Origin: Deltaproteobacteria bacterium | Lineage (GTDB): Bacteria > Myxococcota > Kuafuiibacteriia > Kuafuiibacteriales > Kuafuiibacteriaceae | DNA length: 64,000 nt | Assembly (NCBI GenBank): GCA_040218735.1 | Contig: JAVJQW010000057.1 | Coordinates: 288,001 to 352,000, forward strand | Direction of reading: 5' to 3' | Shown: in pieces, positions 4,685 to 11,009 of the stretch | How positions within the stretch are numbered: the first letter of the stretch is position 1 | Layout of the letters: every line of letters begins with the position of its first letter | Made by a program: the position numbers and the translations under genes | Notes under the pieces: generated by a model | Told to the model about the DNA's origin: nothing | Database searches by the model: none | What the model saw: the letters and a program-made list of their open reading frames with translations, nothing else

Positions 4685-4730
4685 GTCGCCGCCGTGGTCC
4701 CGATCCGTGCACGAGGGGGCTCCGCGGAGC

Positions 4731-4747
4731 CTGGCACGAAGCCTGCG
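4731..4747 (+). promoter_or_regulatory. sigma54 (-24/-12) promoter
   Basis: CTGGCACGAAGCCTGCG versus consensus YTGGCACG-N4-TTGCW, with correct GG-N10-GC spacing, 21 nt before ATG 4769. Confidence 0.65.
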
Positions 4748-4768
4748 ACTAAGAGGCCCACCACACTC

Positions 4769-7225
4769 ATGGCACCGCGAATCCGAGAATCCGACCCCAC
4801 CCGCCGCGTCGACCGCCCCGACCTCACGCACCCGCGCGTGACCTCGCGTCCGGTCCGCACCGAGGCGCCCCGCGACGTCGAGGGCCCCGCCACCGTCGAG
4901 CGCCCGCGTTGGGAGCGGTCGGAGGCGTACGCGGAGCGCGCGCCGCGCGTGGGTGACGGCGACCGAGCGGAGACCGACGACCCTCGCGGCCCCGAGTTCC
5001 GGAGCATCGGTGCCTCGGGATCGACGGCGCGCCCCTCCGGCGCGCAAGCGGCGCCCGGCGCATCGAGTGTGCGGGCGAGCCGGCGCACGGGCATCGGCGC
5101 GGGGGGCGGCTCGGCGCGGCCCAGCGACTCGCCGGCGGACGCGCCCGGCGGGATGGACCGCGCCGCGGCGCGGGCGATCATCGACGAGGCGATGTCGAAG
5201 GCCGTGACGGACCTCGACTCGGACGACTACGTCCGCAACAACGTCACCGCCGAAGTCCTCGCCCACGCCACCGTCGAAGAGAAGGCGCACATGCTCCGCT
5301 CGCTGATGGACGGCTGGACCGGCGAGGAAGACCAGGCGGCGATGGCGCGCATCCTCGAGAGCGTCGGTTCCCCCGCCGAGATGGAGACGCTGCTCCGCCG
5401 GGCCGGCGGCGCCGAGGCCGTACTGAGTGAGCTCGGCGAGACGCAGCTCGACGCGGTCGCGAACCACTTCCGCGGTCAGGGCGCGAACGGCGCACGGATG
5501 CTGATCACGATCTCGAACGAGCTCGACACCAGCAGCAGCTGGTCCGACGACTTCGTGCGCAACCACATCGACGCGAGTGTGTTGCAGCACGCGACGAACG
5601 AAGAGAAAGGCCGGATGCTCCGCCACCTGATGGAGGGCATCACGGTCGCCGAGGACGAGGCCGCGATGGCGCGCATCCTCTCTTCGGTGACGAGCCCCGA
5701 CGACATGATGGAGGTCATCGCGGCGGCGGGCGGCAGCGAGGCCGTGATGGACGAGCTCGAAGGCGCGACGTCCACGTTCATGCAGCACCTCGACAGCCTC
5801 GGCGCCGACGGCGACCAGATCATCGCGCGCATGGCCGCGGACTACGCGGTGGGCTCGTGGGAGTCGGACGACTTCGTACGCAACTACGTGGACGCCGACG
5901 TCCTGCAGCACGCGACGCAAGATCAGAAGGCGCACATGCTCCGCTCGTTGATGGACGGCTGGACCGGCGAAGGCGACGAGCAGGCGATGGTCCGCGTCCT
6001 CAACAGCGCGACGGACCGCGCCGACCTCGAGGCGCTCATGACCGCCGCGGGCGGCGCCGACACGATCTGGAACGAGCTGGAAGGCCAGCAGAGCGCGTTC
6101 ATCGCCGAGCTCCGCGGACGCGGCGCGACCGGCGAGGAGATGATCCTCGGCCTCGCGCTCGCGCACTCCGACGACTCGACGGGCGCGCAGCTCATCCGCG
6201 ACCACGTGGATGCGCGGGTGCTCGCCCACGCCACCGTCGCCGAGAAGGGTGCGCTCGTCGCGGCGCTCCGCGCGGCGGGGACGAGCAGCGAGAACCAGGC
6301 GGCGATCCGCGAGATCCTCCGCTCGGCCGCGAACCCGGTCGAGCTGATGGACATCGCGCAGGCCGCGGGCGGCGTGCAGCAGGTGCTCGGTCTGACGCCG
6401 GCGCAGCGGCAGCTCGTGACCGACGCGTACAACGCCAACTCCGGCGACGCGACGTTCACGCAGAACCTCGAGAACCTGATCACCGACCCGAACTTCACGC
6501 GACTGTCGTCCGACCAGCGGACGGCCGTGCTGAGCCAGGCGAAGAACTACCCGGACGCGCGCTCGGTCGCGAACCTCACGCGGCTGATGAGCAAGGACTG
6601 GTTCCGCTCGATGTCCCTCGCGGACACGCAGCGTTCGGCGGCGATGATCGCCTACGTCTCGCAGCACGCGGGCGATAGGACGATCATCGACAACACCCTC
6701 GACCGCTTCCTCGCGGACGACGCGCCGTACACGTTCGACTGGGGCGAGACGGGCACGCCGTACGGCTCGGCGGGGTCGGACACGTTCCACTTCAACCGCG
6801 CGTACCTCCCGGCCGGCAACGGTCCGGTCGACACGACGAACGCCAACACGCTCCACATGGTCACCCACACCGTGGCGCACGAAGTGAACCACCTCGTGAA
6901 CAACGATCGTGTGCGTGAGTCGTTCGACTACTTCATGGAGGAGTACCGTGCGTTCTACGTCGGCTTCCGCGCGCAGCACGGTCGCGACCCGACCCGCGCC
7001 GAGGTCCTCAACCGCGTCCGTGGCCTCCTGACCGCGAACTCGGGCGCCTACAACAGCATCCGCCTCGCCCTCGCCGACGCGACGGAGGGCCCGCGCTTCC
7101 TCCCGTTCCTGCAGCAGGTGCTCGGTCGCAACGACGTGACCCAGGCAAATGCTGGTACGCTCCCCGTCGTGAACGGAGGCGCCCCGGCGCCCGCCCCCAC
7201 CGACGGCGGAGACATGGACAATTGA
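4769..7225 (+). CDS. large protein: disordered N-terminus, four ~107-aa helical repeats, C-terminal HExxH metallopeptidase-like domain
   Basis: Repeats SDD(Y/F)VRN..VL.HAT..EK..MLR.LM(D/E)G.T..EDE.AM.RIL, then VAHEVNH followed by EEYRA. No signal peptide. Confidence 0.8.
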   Translation: MAPRIRESDPTRRVDRPDLTHPRVTSRPVRTEAPRDVEGPATVERPRWERSEAYAERAPRVGDGDRAETDDPRGPEFRSIGASGSTARPSGAQAAPGASSVRASRRTGIGAGGGSARPSDSPADAPGGMDRAAARAIIDEAMSKAVTDLDSDDYVRNNVTAEVLAHATVEEKAHMLRSLMDGWTGEEDQAAMARILESVGSPAEMETLLRRAGGAEAVLSELGETQLDAVANHFRGQGANGARMLITISNELDTSSSWSDDFVRNHIDASVLQHATNEEKGRMLRHLMEGITVAEDEAAMARILSSVTSPDDMMEVIAAAGGSEAVMDELEGATSTFMQHLDSLGADGDQIIARMAADYAVGSWESDDFVRNYVDADVLQHATQDQKAHMLRSLMDGWTGEGDEQAMVRVLNSATDRADLEALMTAAGGADTIWNELEGQQSAFIAELRGRGATGEEMILGLALAHSDDSTGAQLIRDHVDARVLAHATVAEKGALVAALRAAGTSSENQAAIREILRSAANPVELMDIAQAAGGVQQVLGLTPAQRQLVTDAYNANSGDATFTQNLENLITDPNFTRLSSDQRTAVLSQAKNYPDARSVANLTRLMSKDWFRSMSLADTQRSAAMIAYVSQHAGDRTIIDNTLDRFLADDAPYTFDWGETGTPYGSAGSDTFHFNRAYLPAGNGPVDTTNANTLHMVTHTVAHEVNHLVNNDRVRESFDYFMEEYRAFYVGFRAQHGRDPTRAEVLNRVRGLLTANSGAYNSIRLALADATEGPRFLPFLQQVLGRNDVTQANAGTLPVVNGGAPAPAPTDGGDMDN
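5216..6400 (+). repeat. intragenic tandem repeat, about 321-bp unit x4
   Basis: Units start near 5216, 5540, 5861 and 6179. AAGGCGCACATGCTCCGCTCG.TGATGGACGGCTGGACCGGCGA recurs in units 1 and 3. Confidence 0.85.
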
Positions 7226-7230
7226 GAAGG

Positions 7231-7806
7231 ATGCTGTACGCCCTCGCCCTCGGCGCGCTGATCTCGGCGTGCCCCGCGAAGCCGAACACGATGAGAGAAG
7301 GTACCCAGATGTCCAAGCACGAAGACCGAATCAAGAGCGAAGCCGCCCAGCAGATGAGCTGGAGCGCGGGTGACGTCGTGGTCGAGACGATCGACGCGAT
7401 CGAGCTCGGTGGCTGCCACTTCTACGGCGCGTTCCACGCGACCAAGCCCACCGGCGCCCCCCTCGCCTACGCCGTCCTCGCGAACGGCGAGGTCGTCGGC
7501 CAGGCGAAGCAGGACGCGGTCGACGCGATCGCGGCGGGCTGCCGAACGGACGGCGCGAGCGCCAAGAGCTGGGCCGAGCTGCTCGCCCGCTTCGACACGA
7601 AGGTCGCGCCCGGGCAGGTCCTCTACGCACCGCCCCCGCCCATCGAGGAGGGTGACGCCCCGGACGCACGCATCCAGGCGCCGAAGCTCGACAACGGGAC
7701 GCTCACGTTCTTCACCCACAACATGCACACCGACCGCACCTACGTCGTGACGGCGAAGGTCTCGGACGGCGGCGTGTCGGACGTCCAGGCGAAGGACCAC
7801 TCCTGA
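7231..7806 (+). CDS. lipoprotein, candidate immunity/partner protein
   Basis: Lipobox-like LISA-C. Starts 5 nt after the upstream stop (alternative TTG at 7222 overlaps it). Confidence 0.7.
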   Translation: MLYALALGALISACPAKPNTMREGTQMSKHEDRIKSEAAQQMSWSAGDVVVETIDAIELGGCHFYGAFHATKPTGAPLAYAVLANGEVVGQAKQDAVDAIAAGCRTDGASAKSWAELLARFDTKVAPGQVLYAPPPPIEEGDAPDARIQAPKLDNGTLTFFTHNMHTDRTYVVTAKVSDGGVSDVQAKDHS

Positions 7807-7835
7807 TTGACGGTGCTGCGCCACGTGCGCAGTAC
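7807..7835 (+). promoter_or_regulatory. sigma70-like promoter for a leaderless uORF/tuf transcript
   Basis: TTGACG (7807-7812), 17 nt, CAGTAC (7830-7835), 7 nt, ATG 7843. Confidence 0.5.
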
Positions 7836-7842
7836 CTCCGTC

Positions 7843-7923
7843 ATGCGCTTTCGCGCCCGCTCATCAGATTCGCGTTCGAACGACTCGGTCGAGTCGTCGG
7901 CGGATCCGAGCGATCTTCGGTAG
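7843..7923 (+). CDS. putative leader peptide (26 aa, MRFRARSSDSRSNDSVESSADPSDLR)
   Basis: ATG..TAG uORF directly after the promoter, inside a highly structured 5' leader. Confidence 0.5.
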   Translation: MRFRARSSDSRSNDSVESSADPSDLR

Positions 7924-8034
7924 CGGGCCTTCGCGCATTCTCACTGAACAAGTCAGCTCGGTTTCGCCGCACGCTCTTTTCGCGTGCGGTCCGGGGCCTC
8001 CGTCCGCACGCGCTACGACAAGGAGGAGGCACCC
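7843..8034 (+). promoter_or_regulatory. putative translational attenuator (alternative helices plus anti-SD)
   Basis: Pairings 7843-7861:7922-7938, 7898-7911:7956-7969, 7967-7974:7982-7989, 7981-7989:8004-8012 and anti-SD 7993-8005:8022-8034. Confidence 0.65.
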
Positions 8035-9204
<1,170 letters not shown>

Positions 9205-9211
9205 ATTGAAC

Positions 9212-9240
9212 GGGGCGGCGGCGCGTTGCGCCGTCGCCCC
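9212..9240. terminator. hairpin between convergent genes
   Basis: GGGGCGGCGGCGC-GTT-GCGCCGTCGCCCC, 13-bp stem. Confidence 0.6.
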
Positions 9241-9254
9241 ACCTTCGATGACCT

Positions 9255-9974
9255 TCAGAAGACGTAGCCCGCTCCGAGCTGGAACACGTGGTACGTGTTG
9301 AATGGGCTCGATTGGAACTCGTCCGTGAGGCGAGCGACGAGCGCGCGGCGGTCGGCGTCCGAGAGCGCGACGCCCTGCACGTCGATCTGGGGGGACGGCG
9401 CACCGAACATCCACCAGCCCGACCACTCCGCGTGGATCGAGAGCCCGAAGTCGAAGGCGTACGCGTAGCCGAGCCCGATCGCGGGGCGAAGGCCCGCGGG
9501 GCGCGACTGAACGAGCGTGACGGCACCGTCGTAGGTCGACGAACCGATCTGCCGCGAGCGCGCGTCGAACCGCATCGTCTCGGTGTCGCGATCGTTGAAG
9601 ACCACCCCGAGCGAGACGTACGGCGACAGCCGATGCGGCCGGATGCGGGTCTGGAGGTACGCGCGCTGACCTACCTCCTCGCTGGACTCCAGCAAACCGC
9701 CGAAGCCGACCGCGTTGGCGTTGAAGGAGGAACCGTCGCGCTGGATGTCGTCGGCGATCTGGTAAGTGAAGCCGACGTAGACCAGATCGTTGAAGTGATA
9801 GCCGACGTCGAAGCCGAGCTTGAAGGACCCGCCGAAGGGCAGCTCGCCGAAGTTGAGGCCCACCTGCCAGACGCCGTCGAGCGCGCTGACGTCGCTCTCG
9901 AACGTGGTCTGCGCGTGAACCGGGAGGCTGACGAGGGTGAGGAGGGTCGTGGTGAGGAGCAGCGTGTTGTTCAT
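9255..9974 (-). CDS. outer-membrane beta-barrel protein
   Basis: Signal peptide (VHA-Q), alternating beta strands, C-terminal LGAGYVF. Confidence 0.75.
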   Translation of the reverse strand: MNNTLLLTTTLLTLVSLPVHAQTTFESDVSALDGVWQVGLNFGELPFGGSFKLGFDVGYHFNDLVYVGFTYQIADDIQRDGSSFNANAVGFGGLLESSEEVGQRAYLQTRIRPHRLSPYVSLGVVFNDRDTETMRFDARSRQIGSSTYDGAVTLVQSRPAGLRPAIGLGYAYAFDFGLSIHAEWSGWWMFGAPSPQIDVQGVALSDADRRALVARLTDEFQSSPFNTYHVFQLGAGYVF

Positions 9975-10015
9975 GCGTCGACGATGCCGCTTCGACGCGG
10001 CGCCGACTCGAACGA

Positions 10016-10045
10016 GCGCGCCGAAGACGTTGGACGATCGCGCCA
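10016..10045 (-). promoter_or_regulatory. candidate AraC operator, copy 1
   Basis: GCGCGCCGAAGACGTTGGACGATCGCGCCA, 27/30 identical to 12570-12599. Both start 42 nt from the downstream start codon. Confidence 0.7.
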
Positions 10046-10046
10046 G

Positions 10047-11009
10047 TCAGCGCGCGCCGCGGAACGCGGAGGGGGTCTTCGCGTGCCTCTTCTTGAAGCT
10101 ACGCGAGAAGTGGGCGGTGTCTGCAAAGCCGCACACGTAGCCGATCTCGGTGATGGACAGGTCGCTGTCCGACAGGAGCCGCGCCGCCTCTTCGTTGCGA
10201 ATGCGATCGAGCAGCTCGCTGTACTTCAGACCGGCGGCGCCGAGCGTGCGCTGAAGCGAACGCGACGACGTCCCGAGCGCCTCGGCGACCTCCGCGAGCT
10301 TCCACGTCCGCCCGAGGTCGCGTCGCACGACGGCCTCGACGCGCGCCGCGGGGCCTGGCTCGTCGTCGAGCGCGCGTTCCGGCGCCGACCCGAGGAGGAT
10401 CGCGTCGAGCCCCGCCATCGGTTTCCGCGTCGGCTCGAAGGCGCCCCACTCGAACCGCCACGTCGAAGTCGCCCCCGACGCAGGCTCCTCGAAGCGACCG
10501 GCATCGTAGACGAGCCGATCGGGGTCGTCGCTCGCAGGGAGACGGAGCCGCAGCGGGCGACAACCAATCTCTTCCAGCAACACGATGTGCTGACCGCAGG
10601 AGGCGAGGCTGTCGGTGGCTTCGGGCGCGCCGTGGTCCGAGACGTGGCGCAGCAGGAGGGCGTTCGGCGACTCCTCGTCGATCACCACGCGGTGGCGCGA
10701 GTGGAAGAAAGCCGCGAGCCGCGCTTCCTTCTCGATGAGGATCCGGGGGGCGTCGCTGTTGAGGAGAACGAACAGCAACGGATGCGCGAGCCCGCGCAGG
10801 GACTCTCCCGCGCGGAGGATCGCCGCGCCCCCCGCGCTCACGTGAACGTCACGGAGGATGCGACGGTAGGGCTCGAGCGGCGCGCCCTCCTCGCCGGCGG
10901 CGAGGACCTCGTTCACATCGACGGCGCGGGCGGCGAGGACGTCCGGGGCGCTCTTCTTCAGGCCTTCGAGGATCAACGAAGCGACGACGATGCTGATCCG
11001 CCCGGCCAC
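10047..11009 (-). CDS. AraC-family transcriptional regulator
   Basis: C-terminal LAEVAEALGTSSRSLQRTL...SITEIGYVCGFADTAHFSRSFKK double HTH. Probable GTG start at 11009. Confidence 0.9.
   Translation of the reverse strand: MAGRISIVVASLILEGLKKSAPDVLAARAVDVNEVLAAGEEGAPLEPYRRILRDVHVSAGGAAILRAGESLRGLAHPLLFVLLNSDAPRILIEKEARLAAFFHSRHRVVIDEESPNALLLRHVSDHGAPEATDSLASCGQHIVLLEEIGCRPLRLRLPASDDPDRLVYDAGRFEEPASGATSTWRFEWGAFEPTRKPMAGLDAILLGSAPERALDDEPGPAARVEAVVRRDLGRTWKLAEVAEALGTSSRSLQRTLGAAGLKYSELLDRIRNEEAARLLSDSDLSITEIGYVCGFADTAHFSRSFKKRHAKTPSAFRGAR

What the first reader, a model, noticed from the sequence alone, without database searches (positions are those of the whole stretch)
7807..8037. Leader-peptide attenuator with a five-helix switch controlling the SD of a spare EF-Tu
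Seen: promoter TTGACG-17-CAGTAC, then ATG 7 nt later (leaderless uORF 7843-7923, MRFRAR...). Helix A pairs 7843-7848:7933-7938 and 7855-7861:7922-7928. Helix B pairs 7898-7911:7956-7969 (13 of 14 pairs, one G-U). Helix C pairs 7967-7974:7982-7989. Helix D pairs 7981-7989:8004-8012 (9 of 9). Helix E is an anti-SD, GGGGCCTCCGTCC (7993-8005), pairing with GGAGGAGGCACCC (8022-8034). A crosses B, B overlaps C, C excludes D, and D competes with E. Inference: the default A+C+E state hides the SD (OFF). A ribosome stalled on the first uORF codons, as expected when EF-Tu is poisoned or limiting, melts A and allows B+D, freeing the SD (ON). Established analogy: ermC/cat-type translational attenuation. 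I know of no described example of this on a tuf paralog in this lineage.
Basis: partly seen in the sequence, partly recalled or inferred. Interest (0 to 1): 0.9.

Follow-up and report, generated by a model that had tools for sequence, protein, structure and literature searches.

The report
Serine-codon leader peptide before spare EF-Tu
A short serine-rich mini-gene in front of a second, divergent copy of the translation factor EF-Tu looks like a built-in sensor that turns this spare factor on when ribosomes stall at serine codons, a circuit shared by many myxobacteria for which I found no published description.

Summary
The described features are in the sequence. The uORF 7843-7923 and helices A-D are exact, and helix E is looser than stated.

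The organism is a myxobacterium, not an actinomycete. The gene at 8035-9204 belongs to a divergent EF-Tu paralog clade of Myxococcota.

The new result is comparative. 26 of 29 loci of this clade carry, at the same distance upstream, a 20-31-codon uORF with a run of serine codons. Those codons are 251 UCN against 11 AGY. Controls gave 1 of 29 and 2 of 102. In 25 loci an intrinsic terminator follows the uORF.

So the leader-peptide attenuator idea is supported, but the sensor is a serine-codon run. It is not a stall on the first codons caused by EF-Tu poisoning. Forcing 7843-7865 single-stranded leaves the SD closed. Only a ribosome with its A site at 7870-7879 partly opens it.

This window has no U-tract terminator, so the output (SD sequestration or termination) stays open. 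Fold stability (7 of 200 shuffles) and SD sequestration (25 of 300) are not significant alone. No RNA data were available.

Five literature searches found no description. I rate it a new variant of a known kind.

The parts
7807..7812 (+). -35-like hexamer TTGACG, starting 36 nt before the uORF ATG
   Evidence: Sequence. TTGAC sits at -36 in L121 too, and at -42 and -44 in L120 and L030. GTCAG lies in -70..-26 in 23 of 29 loci against 3 of 29 on the reverse complement. Not found by the consensus promoter scan. No TSS data.
7830..7835 (+). Weak -10-like hexamer CAGTAC, 17 nt after the -35 and 7 nt before the ATG
   Evidence: Sequence. Same geometry as L121, TTGACA-17-TAAAAC-7-ATG. Inference only.
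7843..7923 (+). Leader peptide uORF of 26 codons plus TAG, with 8 Ser codons of which 7 are UCN. Ser codons at 7861-7866, 7870, 7876, 7885, 7894-7899 and 7909 (AGC).
   Evidence: Enrichment matched by 1 of 5000 shuffles. Same position (-192..-112 from the tuf ATG) and composition as the uORFs of relatives, e.g. L113 at -193..-113.
7843..7938 (+). Helix A domain. 7843-7848:7933-7938 and 7855-7861:7922-7928 enclose an inner stack 7863-7886:7891-7921. Locks the OFF state when no ribosome is on the uORF.
   Evidence: Pair probability 0.95 in the free RNA.
7891..7976 (+). It is the antagonist of hairpin C.
7966..7990 (+). Hairpin C, 9 bp with loop UCUUUUC, -17.2 kcal/mol. It sits where relatives have their terminator, but no U-tract follows.
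   Evidence: nhmmer aligns 7976-8039 to the post-terminator part of the relatives' profile, but at E = 0.24, which is not significant.
7981..8012 (+). Helix D, 7981-7989:8004-8012, 9 bp, -22.1 kcal/mol. Excludes C by a shared strand and E by crossing.
7993..8034 (+). Hairpin E, -22.2 kcal/mol. Anti-SD GGGGCCUCC pairs with the SD region. SD AGGAGGAGG lies at about 8021-8030.
   Evidence: SD unpaired probability 0.11. Equally low in 25 of 300 shuffles.
8035..9204 (+). Divergent EF-Tu paralog, 389 aa, with all three EF-Tu domains
   Evidence: Pfam GTP_EFTU 1.4e-60, D2 7.1e-16, D3 9e-26. 58% identical to the genome's housekeeping tuf. In the paralog clade of the tree, SH-aLRT 100. All relatives share the short N-terminus, so ATG 8035 rather than GTG 7984 is the start.
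7928..8061 (.). Stretch replaced by 8 nt in natural close relatives. It covers the 3' half of the leader, the SD, the ATG and the first 9 codons.
   Evidence: Joint 7927->8062 in DNA contigs of 3 of the 4 runs laid (X3, X4, X16), which come from three studies. The fourth run, X8, spans the full form.

Best explanation
The 228-nt leader (7807-8034) is a ribosome-mediated attenuator. Its sensor is the translation of a serine-codon-rich leader peptide (uORF 7843-7923). It belongs to a leader type conserved upstream of one divergent EF-Tu paralog clade across Myxococcota.

Proposed working, as inference:
- When Ser-tRNA(UCN) is plentiful, the ribosome runs to the TAG and leaves. Helix A closes, hairpins C and E form, and the SD is buried (OFF).
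- When decoding of the UCN codons is slow, a ribosome stalled around codons 10-13 (A site 7870-7879) holds helix A and the inner hairpin open.
- The extended helix B (7891-7928:7933-7976) then takes the 5' arm of C, D replaces C and E, and the SD is freed (ON).

In most relatives the same kind of leader peptide is followed by a canonical intrinsic terminator, so there the output is transcription attenuation. In this window the U-tract is missing, and the output is probably translational.

Shown: the conserved Ser-rich uORF, its position, the codon bias, the terminators in relatives, and the alternative helices. Inferred: that ribosomes stall there, that serine supply is the signal, and which output is used here.
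For: 1. The uORF is conserved. 26 of 29 paralog loci examined (window included) have an upstream small ORF with at least 6 Ser in 12 residues. The reverse-complement control gives 1 of 29. Non-paralog EF-Tu loci give 2 of 102, and 1 of 28 among those with at least 60% GC.
2. Position and length agree. The window uORF lies at -192..-112 and L113's at -193..-113; others start at -171 to -281.
3. Ser codons in the uORFs are 251 UCN against 11 AGY. In the EF-Tu paralog genes themselves the counts are 191 against 113. Third positions vary while Ser is kept, for example L124 against L125.
4. The window uORF alone is matched by 1 of 5000 shuffles.
5. 26 of 29 loci have a U-run after the uORF, and 25 have a terminal hairpin before it. 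An alignment of 17 leaders gives an 11-pair terminator, 4 pairs with compensatory changes.
6. The EF-Tu tree separates the paralog clade, window included, from all housekeeping EF-Tu (SH-aLRT 100, branch length 0.56; quick tree).
7. In the window, the SD unpaired probability rises from 0.11 to 0.15-0.43 only with the A site at 7870-7879. There D reaches up to 0.83 and E falls to 0.17. OFF is -87.6 and ON is -77.5 kcal/mol.
8. In truncated transcripts of relatives, the terminator's 5' arm is more paired during Ser-run stalls than at the stop codon in 8 of 25 loci.
9. In a strain 2.7% divergent over 2401 nt (X8), 27 differences are listed in 7090-7786 and none in 7787-8585.
Against: - There is no RNA evidence. 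No TSS, no ribosome footprints and no RNA run are available.
- The leader has no detectable sequence similarity to any relative's leader. Best blastn E is 0.53, single-sequence nhmmer E is 4.6, and the profile nhmmer E is 0.24. Homology of the leader therefore rests on architecture.
- Fold stability is marginal, with 7 of 200 shuffles as good.
- SD sequestration is not significant, with 25 of 300 shuffles as low.
- The modelled switch is partial (SD unpaired at most 0.43). It works for only 4 of 27 ribosome positions. Stalls at the Ser codons 7861, 7864, 7885, 7894, 7897 and 7909 do nothing.
- Equilibrium folding of relatives' full leaders shows terminator loss on Ser stalls in only 2 of 25.
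- The two other U-tract-less leaders, L134 and L030, show no SD response.
- The window's Ser run is interrupted, with 8 Ser of 26 codons.
- 84 rows of the variant table were hidden. 'No X8 difference in the leader' is therefore an inference.
- The regulated gene is not a serine-biosynthesis gene, so the logic of the signal is unexplained.
Confidence: 0.6

Rival explanations
1. The uORF senses EF-Tu poisoning or shortage. A ribosome stalled on the first codons melts helix A, the B+D cascade frees the SD, and the spare EF-Tu is made (ermC/cat-like translational attenuation). A softer form keeps the serine codons as the slowest-decoded reporters of general elongation capacity, giving EF-Tu homeostasis.
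For: The helices exist and A+C+E is the MFE. The regulated gene is itself an EF-Tu, so feedback on elongation capacity is logical (inference). Melting A does give B, at probability 0.65-1.0.
Against: With 7843-7865 or 7843-7875 unpaired, or the A site at codons 2-7, C and E stay at 1.0 and 0.99-1.0, D at 0.0-0.01 and the SD at 0.11 unpaired. The feature conserved across 26 of 29 loci is a UCN serine run, not the first codons. A general elongation sensor would not need one amino acid's codons and would not avoid AGY. Most relatives use a terminator, not an SD hairpin.
Confidence: 0.12
2. Same serine leader-peptide sensor, but the output in this window is premature transcription termination. Either hairpin C acts as a U-tract-less terminator or pause site, or Rho acts on the C-rich unstructured stretch 7928-7960. 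SD sequestration would not be the output.
For: Hairpin C sits where 25 relatives have their terminator. Helix B extended competes directly with C. Canonical U-tract terminators are not enriched in this genome region, with 7 found against 6.6 expected in 20 kb, so U-less termination may be usual here. SD sequestration is not statistically supported.
Against: No U-run with at least 6 T in 9 lies between the uORF and tuf. U-less hairpins are weak terminators in the systems I know of (recalled). The rut site is a guess. The D/E pair would then have no role.
Confidence: 0.18
3. A decaying relic. The paralog and its leader arrived by transfer, the terminator was lost, and the leader no longer switches. 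The SD hairpin simply keeps translation low and constant.
For: The window is the only one of the 20 genomes of its family with this clade's Ser-leader type. The window protein has a long branch (0.52) and changes at positions invariant in the housekeeping set, E. coli F218H, N273S and E259Q. Close natural relatives have lost the SD, the ATG and 9 codons. The Ser run is interrupted. The modelled switch is weak.
Against: The ORF is intact with GC3 of 0.94. No differences are listed in the leader or the first 550 nt of tuf in a strain that differs at 27 listed places in the 700 nt upstream. Serine enrichment of the uORF is still matched by only 1 of 5000 shuffles.
Confidence: 0.08
4. Chance. An ordinary GC-rich 5' UTR whose helices and small ORF mean nothing.
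For: z = -1.93 only. 25 of 300 shuffles hide the SD as well. 196 of 36,782 small ATG ORFs in the genome reach the same serine score.
Against: The same kind of uORF occurs at the same place in 26 of 29 loci of the clade, against 2 of 102 controls.
Confidence: 0.02

Closest known systems
Classical leader-peptide transcription attenuators of amino-acid operons (trpL, hisL, thrL, leuL, pheL, ilv leaders)
   Same: A short uORF with a run of codons for one amino acid. Alternative RNA pairings depend on where the ribosome sits. In 25 relatives an intrinsic terminator lies just downstream.
   Different: The codons are serine, for which I found no described attenuator. The controlled gene is a translation factor, not a biosynthetic operon. 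This window lacks the U-tract and has an SD-hiding hairpin instead.
ermC / cat / cmlA translational attenuation
   Same: A uORF whose stalled ribosome could open a downstream hairpin that hides the SD.
   Different: Those systems stall on a specific nascent peptide plus a drug (recalled). Here the conserved feature is a codon run, no drug is implied, and relatives use terminators.
UCN serine codons of sinR as a serine sensor in Bacillus subtilis (PMC3862929; abstract seen in the listings)
   Same: The four UCN (TCN) serine codons, not AGC/AGT, report serine depletion through slow translation. The leaders here use UCN 251 to 11.
   Different: In sinR the codons lie inside the regulated gene itself. 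There is no leader peptide, terminator or SD switch.
Streptomyces tuf3 / actEF-Tu, a divergent condition-specific EF-Tu (passages of PMC4342817 seen)
   Same: A clearly divergent extra EF-Tu beside the housekeeping copy, thought to serve under stress.
   Different: A different phylum, and the two clades were not compared here. PMC4342817 calls actEF-Tu the only clearly distinct EF-Tu-like subfamily. I know of no leader peptide for tuf3 (recalled).
T-box leaders of serS in Gram-positive bacteria (recalled)
   Same: A cis-acting leader that reports the charging state of tRNA-Ser.
   Different: T-boxes bind the tRNA directly and need no translation. No T-box or other Rfam family matches here.

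Membership tests
Ribosome-mediated leader-peptide attenuator | Short translatable ORF in the 5' leader | tested here: met
   ATG 7843 to TAG 7923, 26 codons. Translation itself was not shown.
Ribosome-mediated leader-peptide attenuator | Leader ORF enriched in codons of one amino acid | tested here: met
   8 Ser of 26 codons, 7 of them UCN. Matched by 1 of 5000 shuffles.
Ribosome-mediated leader-peptide attenuator | Leader ORF and its codon run conserved upstream of related genes | tested here: met
   26 of 29 loci against 1 of 29 and 2 of 102 in controls.
Ribosome-mediated leader-peptide attenuator | Intrinsic terminator (hairpin plus U-tract) between leader ORF and gene | tested here: not met
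   No U-run in the window. It is present in 25-26 of the 28 related loci examined (terminator covariation).
Ribosome-mediated leader-peptide attenuator | Mutually exclusive structures selected by ribosome position | tested here: inconclusive
   In the window the switch appears only with the A site at 7870-7879 and is partial. In relatives it appears in 2 of 25 at equilibrium and 8 of 25 in truncated transcripts. The process is kinetic and was not modelled.
Ribosome-mediated leader-peptide attenuator | Controlled genes make or handle the sensed amino acid | tested here: not met
   The downstream gene is an EF-Tu, followed by a convergent outer-membrane protein gene.
ermC/cat-type translational attenuation | SD and start of the gene buried in a hairpin that a leader-stalled ribosome opens | tested here: inconclusive
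   Hairpin E buries the SD at 0.11 unpaired, but 25 of 300 shuffles do as well. Opening is partial.
ermC/cat-type translational attenuation | Drug-dependent arrest on a specific nascent peptide | not testable with these tools
   Needs toeprinting or Ribo-seq with drugs. The conserved feature is a Ser run, not an arrest motif.
Any Rfam cis-regulatory family | Covariance-model match | tested here: not met
   No match in L138 (window 5300-10800) at E up to 1.
Myxococcota Ser-leader of the EF-Tu paralog clade (defined here) | Downstream gene falls in the paralog clade | tested here: met
   Quick ML tree, SH-aLRT 100. Up to 71% identity to clade members against 58% to the genome's own housekeeping tuf.
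Myxococcota Ser-leader of the EF-Tu paralog clade (defined here) | Detectable nucleotide similarity of the leader | tested here: not met
   blastn E 0.53, nhmmer E 4.6, and profile E 0.24.
Streptomyces tuf3 / actEF-Tu subfamily | Clusters with actinomycete EF-Tu3 | not tested
   No tuf3 sequence was placed in the tree.

The most novel reading that the evidence does not exclude
The Myxococcota paralog clade is not merely a spare EF-Tu. It would be a specialised elongation factor with an altered aminoacyl-tRNA binding surface. The evidence is substitutions at sites that are invariant (M260, R333; 36 of 36) or near-invariant (R262; 33 of 36) in the housekeeping set: E. coli M260 to A/S/T in 29 of 30, R262 to H in 28 of 30, and R333 to G in 30 of 30. 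On this reading it is made only when decoding of UCN serine codons stalls. It could be a dedicated carrier or rescuer for Ser-tRNA(UCN). It could be a starvation or development factor, since serine exhaustion signals the end of growth in amino-acid-eating myxobacteria. Or it could be a counter-measure against agents that hit SerRS or tRNA-Ser.
Probability: 0.15. Interest if true: 0.9.

Novelty: new variant of a known kind. Interest (0 to 1): 0.75.

Why it matters
Leader-peptide attenuation is textbook for amino-acid biosynthesis operons. A serine-codon version that controls a translation elongation factor appears not to have been described. My five searches of the held library found none, and a 2015 survey of translational GTPases names only the actinomycete EF-Tu-like subfamily as distinct (PMC4342817, passages).

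It gives a concrete, testable handle on two open points. The first is what the divergent EF-Tu clade of myxobacteria is for. The second is whether UCN serine codons act as a general hunger signal beyond Bacillus.

It also shows one sensor coupled to two different outputs, a terminator in most lineages and an SD hairpin or U-less hairpin here. That is a useful natural case of how attenuators are rebuilt.

Tried and rejected
- RNA evidence: no RNA holder listed among the 22 runs. Only DNA contigs could be laid.
- The metagenome scan with the upstream 194-aa protein gave 599 pattern matches, none a relative.
- The genome-contig scan with the EF-Tu was swamped by housekeeping EF-Tu. The best hit was 61% (Labilithrix) and no close ortholog appeared.
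- The family-wide DNA search found no match to the leader part of the query in 19 related genomes.
- blastn and nhmmer of the leader against 136 loci found nothing. A profile of 20 leaders against the window gave E = 0.24.
- Rfam at E up to 1 gave nothing on the leader.
- Neighbours are not conserved. The ParM-like, 194-aa, OMP and AraC proteins had no tblastn hit in the 1.5-kb flanks of the paralog loci.
- Self-resistance gene in a biosynthetic cluster: no PKS/NRPS-size ORF or cluster-like Pfam hit was seen among the neighbours tested.
- A wider serine regulon was not found. The genome-wide small-ORF scan gave 196 hits, and the listed ones I looked at read like off-frame or antisense coding sequence, though I did not check their contexts. 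The pattern ATGCGC(TCN)4 in 5 genomes gave 15 matches, of which 14 were examined. Of those, 4 are the EF-Tu leaders, and none of the other 10 is a short ORF followed by a terminator and a gene.
- Equilibrium modelling of terminator loss in relatives was mostly negative, 2 of 25.
- SD response in L134 and L030: none.
- The careful tree search did not finish, so the quick tree was used.
- Supplementary files of PMC4342817, which list the EF-Tu subfamilies, could not be read.
Full report
WHAT IS IN THE SEQUENCE

TTGACG lies at 7807-7812, CAGTAC at 7830-7835 and the ATG at 7843. The 26-codon uORF ends with TAG at 7921-7923.

Helices A (6+7 pairs), B (12 WC + 1 GU of 14), C (8 of 8) and D (9 of 9) are exact. 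Helix E in the register given has only 8 WC + 1 GU of 13. RNAfold uses a bulged 12-bp form, 7993-8005:8022-8034.

- The fold has z = -1.93, and 7 of 200 shuffles fold as well.
- The SD is hidden as well in 25 of 300 shuffles of 7924-8015.
- The consensus promoter scan finds nothing in 7000-9600.

The uORF is the unusual part. It has 7 UCN serine codons within 14 codons, matched by 1 of 5000 dinucleotide shuffles and 5 of 2238 tiles of the window.

CONTEXT

The window lies in an 11.6-Mb, 69.6% GC genome. The nearest named homologs are from Archangium, Pendulispora, Polyangia and Labilithrix. The genomes that genome-search runs 'same phylum' include 12-13.8-Mb genomes matching those names. So this is a myxobacterium, not an actinomycete.

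The gene at 8035-9204 has all three EF-Tu domains. It is 58% identical to the genome's housekeeping tuf, which sits beside an EF-G-like match on another contig. A database record calls the gene from GTG 7984 (406 aa). All 32 related genes examined share the short N-terminus M-x-K-x-H-x-N-V-G-T-I-G-H, so ATG 8035 behind the AGGAGGAGG SD is the start.

A quick maximum-likelihood tree was built from 70 EF-Tu sequences. It separates a paralog clade from every housekeeping EF-Tu, with SH-aLRT 100 and branch length 0.56 (the careful search did not finish). The clade holds the window, 28 loci from other Myxococcota families, Labilithrix, three 'MSQ-type' copies from the window's own family, and one Pseudomonadota MAG.

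No homolog above 71% identity was found, neither among the best 120 listed of the 8000 candidates scored in the 5.8-billion-protein search nor in 401 genomes of the phylum. Neighbouring genes are not conserved. Nothing cluster-like surrounds the gene. The neighbours are Sua5, a PLD-like protein, a ParM-like 843-aa protein, a 194-aa protein, then tuf, a convergent OMP, and AraC.

THE COMPARATIVE RESULT

The leader has no nucleotide similarity to any relative. When the upstream regions of the paralog loci were read, however, almost all showed the same architecture.

26 of 29 loci, the window included, carry a small ORF with at least 6 Ser in 12 residues. The reverse-complement control gives 1 of 29. 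Non-paralog EF-Tu loci give 2 of 102, and 1 of 28 among those with at least 60% GC.

Examples of the peptides:
- L128: MRSSSSSSSSASARGRGVAMR
- L123: MRFSSASSSSSSSSASAETDAP
- L124: MRSSSSSSSSSSSGSPEARA
- L113: MFRSSSSSSLLRDARSRREEVRAGST, at -193..-113 from the tuf start
- Window: MRFRARSSDSRSNDSVESSADPSDLR, at -192..-112

The serine codons are 251 UCN against 11 AGY. In the paralog genes themselves the counts are 191 against 113. Between related loci the third positions turn over while serine is kept, which is the signature of selection on the translated codons. The three MSQ-type copies and the Pseudomonadota copy lack such a uORF.

In 26 of 29 loci a U-run follows the uORF, and in 25 a GC-rich hairpin ends just before it. 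An alignment of 17 leaders gives an 11-pair terminator, with compensatory changes at 4 pairs and a conserved CTGAGG at the uORF stop. From the U-run to the tuf ATG is only about 40-60 nt, too short for a promoter plus 5' UTR. The terminator therefore lies inside the leader, which makes this a classical transcription attenuator.

The window, L030 and L134 lack the U-run. A -35-like element recurs upstream of the uORF start. GTCAG occurs in 23 of 29 loci (3 of 29 on the reverse complement), and TTGAC in the window, L121, L120 and L030. In 17 loci it lies 33-38 nt before the start. L121 has the same TTGACA-17-hexamer-7-ATG geometry as the window.

Doing so melts A and forms B as predicted. Hairpins C and E stay at probability 1.0, D stays at 0.0, and the SD stays 0.11 unpaired. 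B and C share only 3-4 nt, so they coexist.

I then scanned a 27-nt ribosome footprint codon by codon. The SD opens partly, to 0.15-0.43, only with the A site at 7870-7879 (Ser, Arg, Ser, Asn). There the ribosome holds both helix A and the inner hairpin 7880-7897 open, and B extends to 7891-7928:7933-7976. That extension removes C. D then forms (up to 0.83) and E falls (to 0.17). The OFF fold is -87.6 and the ON fold is -77.5 kcal/mol.

So the five helices can act as a switch, but the trigger position is inside the serine block and not at the first codons. The modelled effect is also partial and narrow.

For relatives, equilibrium folding rarely removes the very stable terminators (2 of 25). 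Transcripts cut before the terminator's 3' arm show its 5' arm more paired during Ser-run stalls than at the stop codon in 8 of 25. Attenuation is kinetic, and these models are only indicative.

STRAIN-LEVEL DATA

No RNA run holds the locus. DNA contigs of four runs were laid.

One 12.5-kb contig (X8) spans the whole stretch with 65 differences in 2401 nt. The variant table lists 27 of them in 7090-7786 and none in 7787-8585. This suggests the leader and the 5' part of tuf are under constraint. However, 84 rows of that table were hidden, so this is an inference.

In three runs from three studies (X3, X4, X16), 7928-8061 is replaced by 8 nt, a net loss of 126 nt. This removes the 3' half of the leader, the SD, the ATG and nine codons, while the uORF is kept. 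In those strains the gene has no evident start, so the paralog is dispensable in nature.

HOW IT MOST LIKELY WORKS

My best reading (0.6) is a serine-codon leader-peptide attenuator. Fast translation of the uORF leads to the closed state. A ribosome waiting for Ser-tRNA(UCN) inside the uORF lets the alternative pairing form, and the EF-Tu paralog is expressed.

The family-wide output is antitermination. In this window it is either SD exposure through C/D/E (my preference) or termination at the U-less hairpin C or by Rho (0.18).

A decaying relic gets 0.08 and chance 0.02.

Why serine? This part is inference. Myxobacteria live on amino acids, and serine depletion may mark the end of growth. In Bacillus subtilis the four UCN codons, not AGC/AGT, act as a serine-depletion sensor (PMC3862929 and bioRxiv 10.1101/564526; only abstracts seen).

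The paralog clade also differs from housekeeping EF-Tu at sites that are invariant (M260, R333; 36 of 36) or near-invariant (R262; 33 of 36) in the housekeeping set. In E. coli numbering taken from the PDB alignment:
- M260 to A/S/T in 29 of 30
- R262 to H in 28 of 30
- R333 to G in 30 of 30

The window protein additionally has F218H, N273S and E259Q. I recall these sites as lying near the aminoacyl and 3'-end pocket and the tRNA-binding face, but I did not verify that here. A specialised tRNA preference is therefore possible.

COMPARISON WITH WHAT IS KNOWN, AND NOVELTY

The element works like trp/his/thr-type attenuators, but with serine codons and a translation factor as target. In this window it may work like ermC-type SD control.

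It matches no Rfam family. Five full-text searches found no serine leader peptide and no account of a myxobacterial EF-Tu paralog. The phrases 'serine-rich leader peptide', 'serine leader peptide' and 'serine attenuator' occur in no paper of the library.

Atkinson 2015 (PMC4342817, passages) names only actEF-Tu as a distinct EF-Tu-like subfamily. Its supplementary lists could not be read. Naville and Gautheret 2010 (PMC2965389, one passage) mention tufA only as part of the rpsL-leader operon.

I rate it a new variant of a known kind.

LIMITS

Everything about function is inferred from DNA. The tree is a quick one. The loci are a sample of 401 genomes. The folding models ignore kinetics.

Noticed in passing
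window 7928-8061: In DNA contigs of three runs from three studies this 134-nt stretch is replaced by 8 nt, a net loss of 126 nt. It holds the 3' half of the leader, the SD, the ATG and the first 9 codons of the EF-Tu paralog. The uORF and the rest of the gene remain. This is a natural variant in which the spare EF-Tu has no evident start.
   Followed up: partly
L110-L137, 25-70 nt upstream of the uORF starts; window 7807-7812: A GTCAG motif lies in -70..-26 of the uORF start in 23 of 29 loci, against 3 of 29 on the reverse complement. It is mostly at -33..-38 and is often followed by a CGTC-like element near -10. This may be a shared promoter type for the paralog, perhaps for an alternative sigma factor. 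The window, L121, L120 and L030 have TTGAC instead.
   Followed up: partly
window 8035-9204 and the paralog clade (alignment): There are clade-specific replacements at sites that are invariant or nearly so in 36 housekeeping EF-Tu. In E. coli numbering they are V104L, A/S106D, M260A/S/T, R262H, G268A and R333G, plus a small insertion near window residue 175. The window protein alone also has F218H, N273S and E259Q.
   Followed up: partly
window 7984-9204: A database record (P0001, 406 aa) starts this gene at GTG 7984, inside the leader. All relatives support ATG 8035.
   Followed up: yes
alignment A1 columns 93-100 (uORF stop region of relatives): A conserved CTGAGG overlaps the uORF stop codon in most Myxococcota leaders. 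It could pair with the CCCUC of the terminator's 5' arm and act as an antiterminator that a terminating ribosome would cover. The window has CGGTAGCGGG instead.
   Followed up: no
L128, L129, L131-L133, L135 uORFs: ATGCGC occurs both at the start and, in frame as Met-Arg, at the end of the uORF just before the TGA. The meaning is unknown.
   Followed up: no
L120:3681-3770: A SAM riboswitch (RF00162, 58.1 bits, E 6.6e-11) lies about 1 kb downstream of the EF-Tu paralog in genome G127.
   Followed up: no
window 4694-7225 and 7222-7806: There are two overlapping same-strand ORFs upstream of the leader. One is 843 aa with a sub-threshold ParM_N hit (21 bits against a cut-off of 27.4). The other is 194 aa with no Pfam hit. 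Both have GC3 of 0.93. The 194-aa gene ends at TGA 7804-7806, one base before the -35-like hexamer. No relative of the 194-aa protein was found in the metagenome scan.
   Followed up: partly
L011:1192-1275: One of the 'MSQ-type' paralog copies in the window's own family is preceded by a tRNA-Tyr gene, a tufB-like arrangement. It has no Ser-rich uORF.
   Followed up: no
G000:C17:21538-21819 (minus strand): Two adjacent small ATG ORFs have runs of 9-11 UCN serine codons, the top hits of the genome-wide scan. They are probably an off-frame or antisense reading of an acidic repeat in a coding gene.
   Followed up: no
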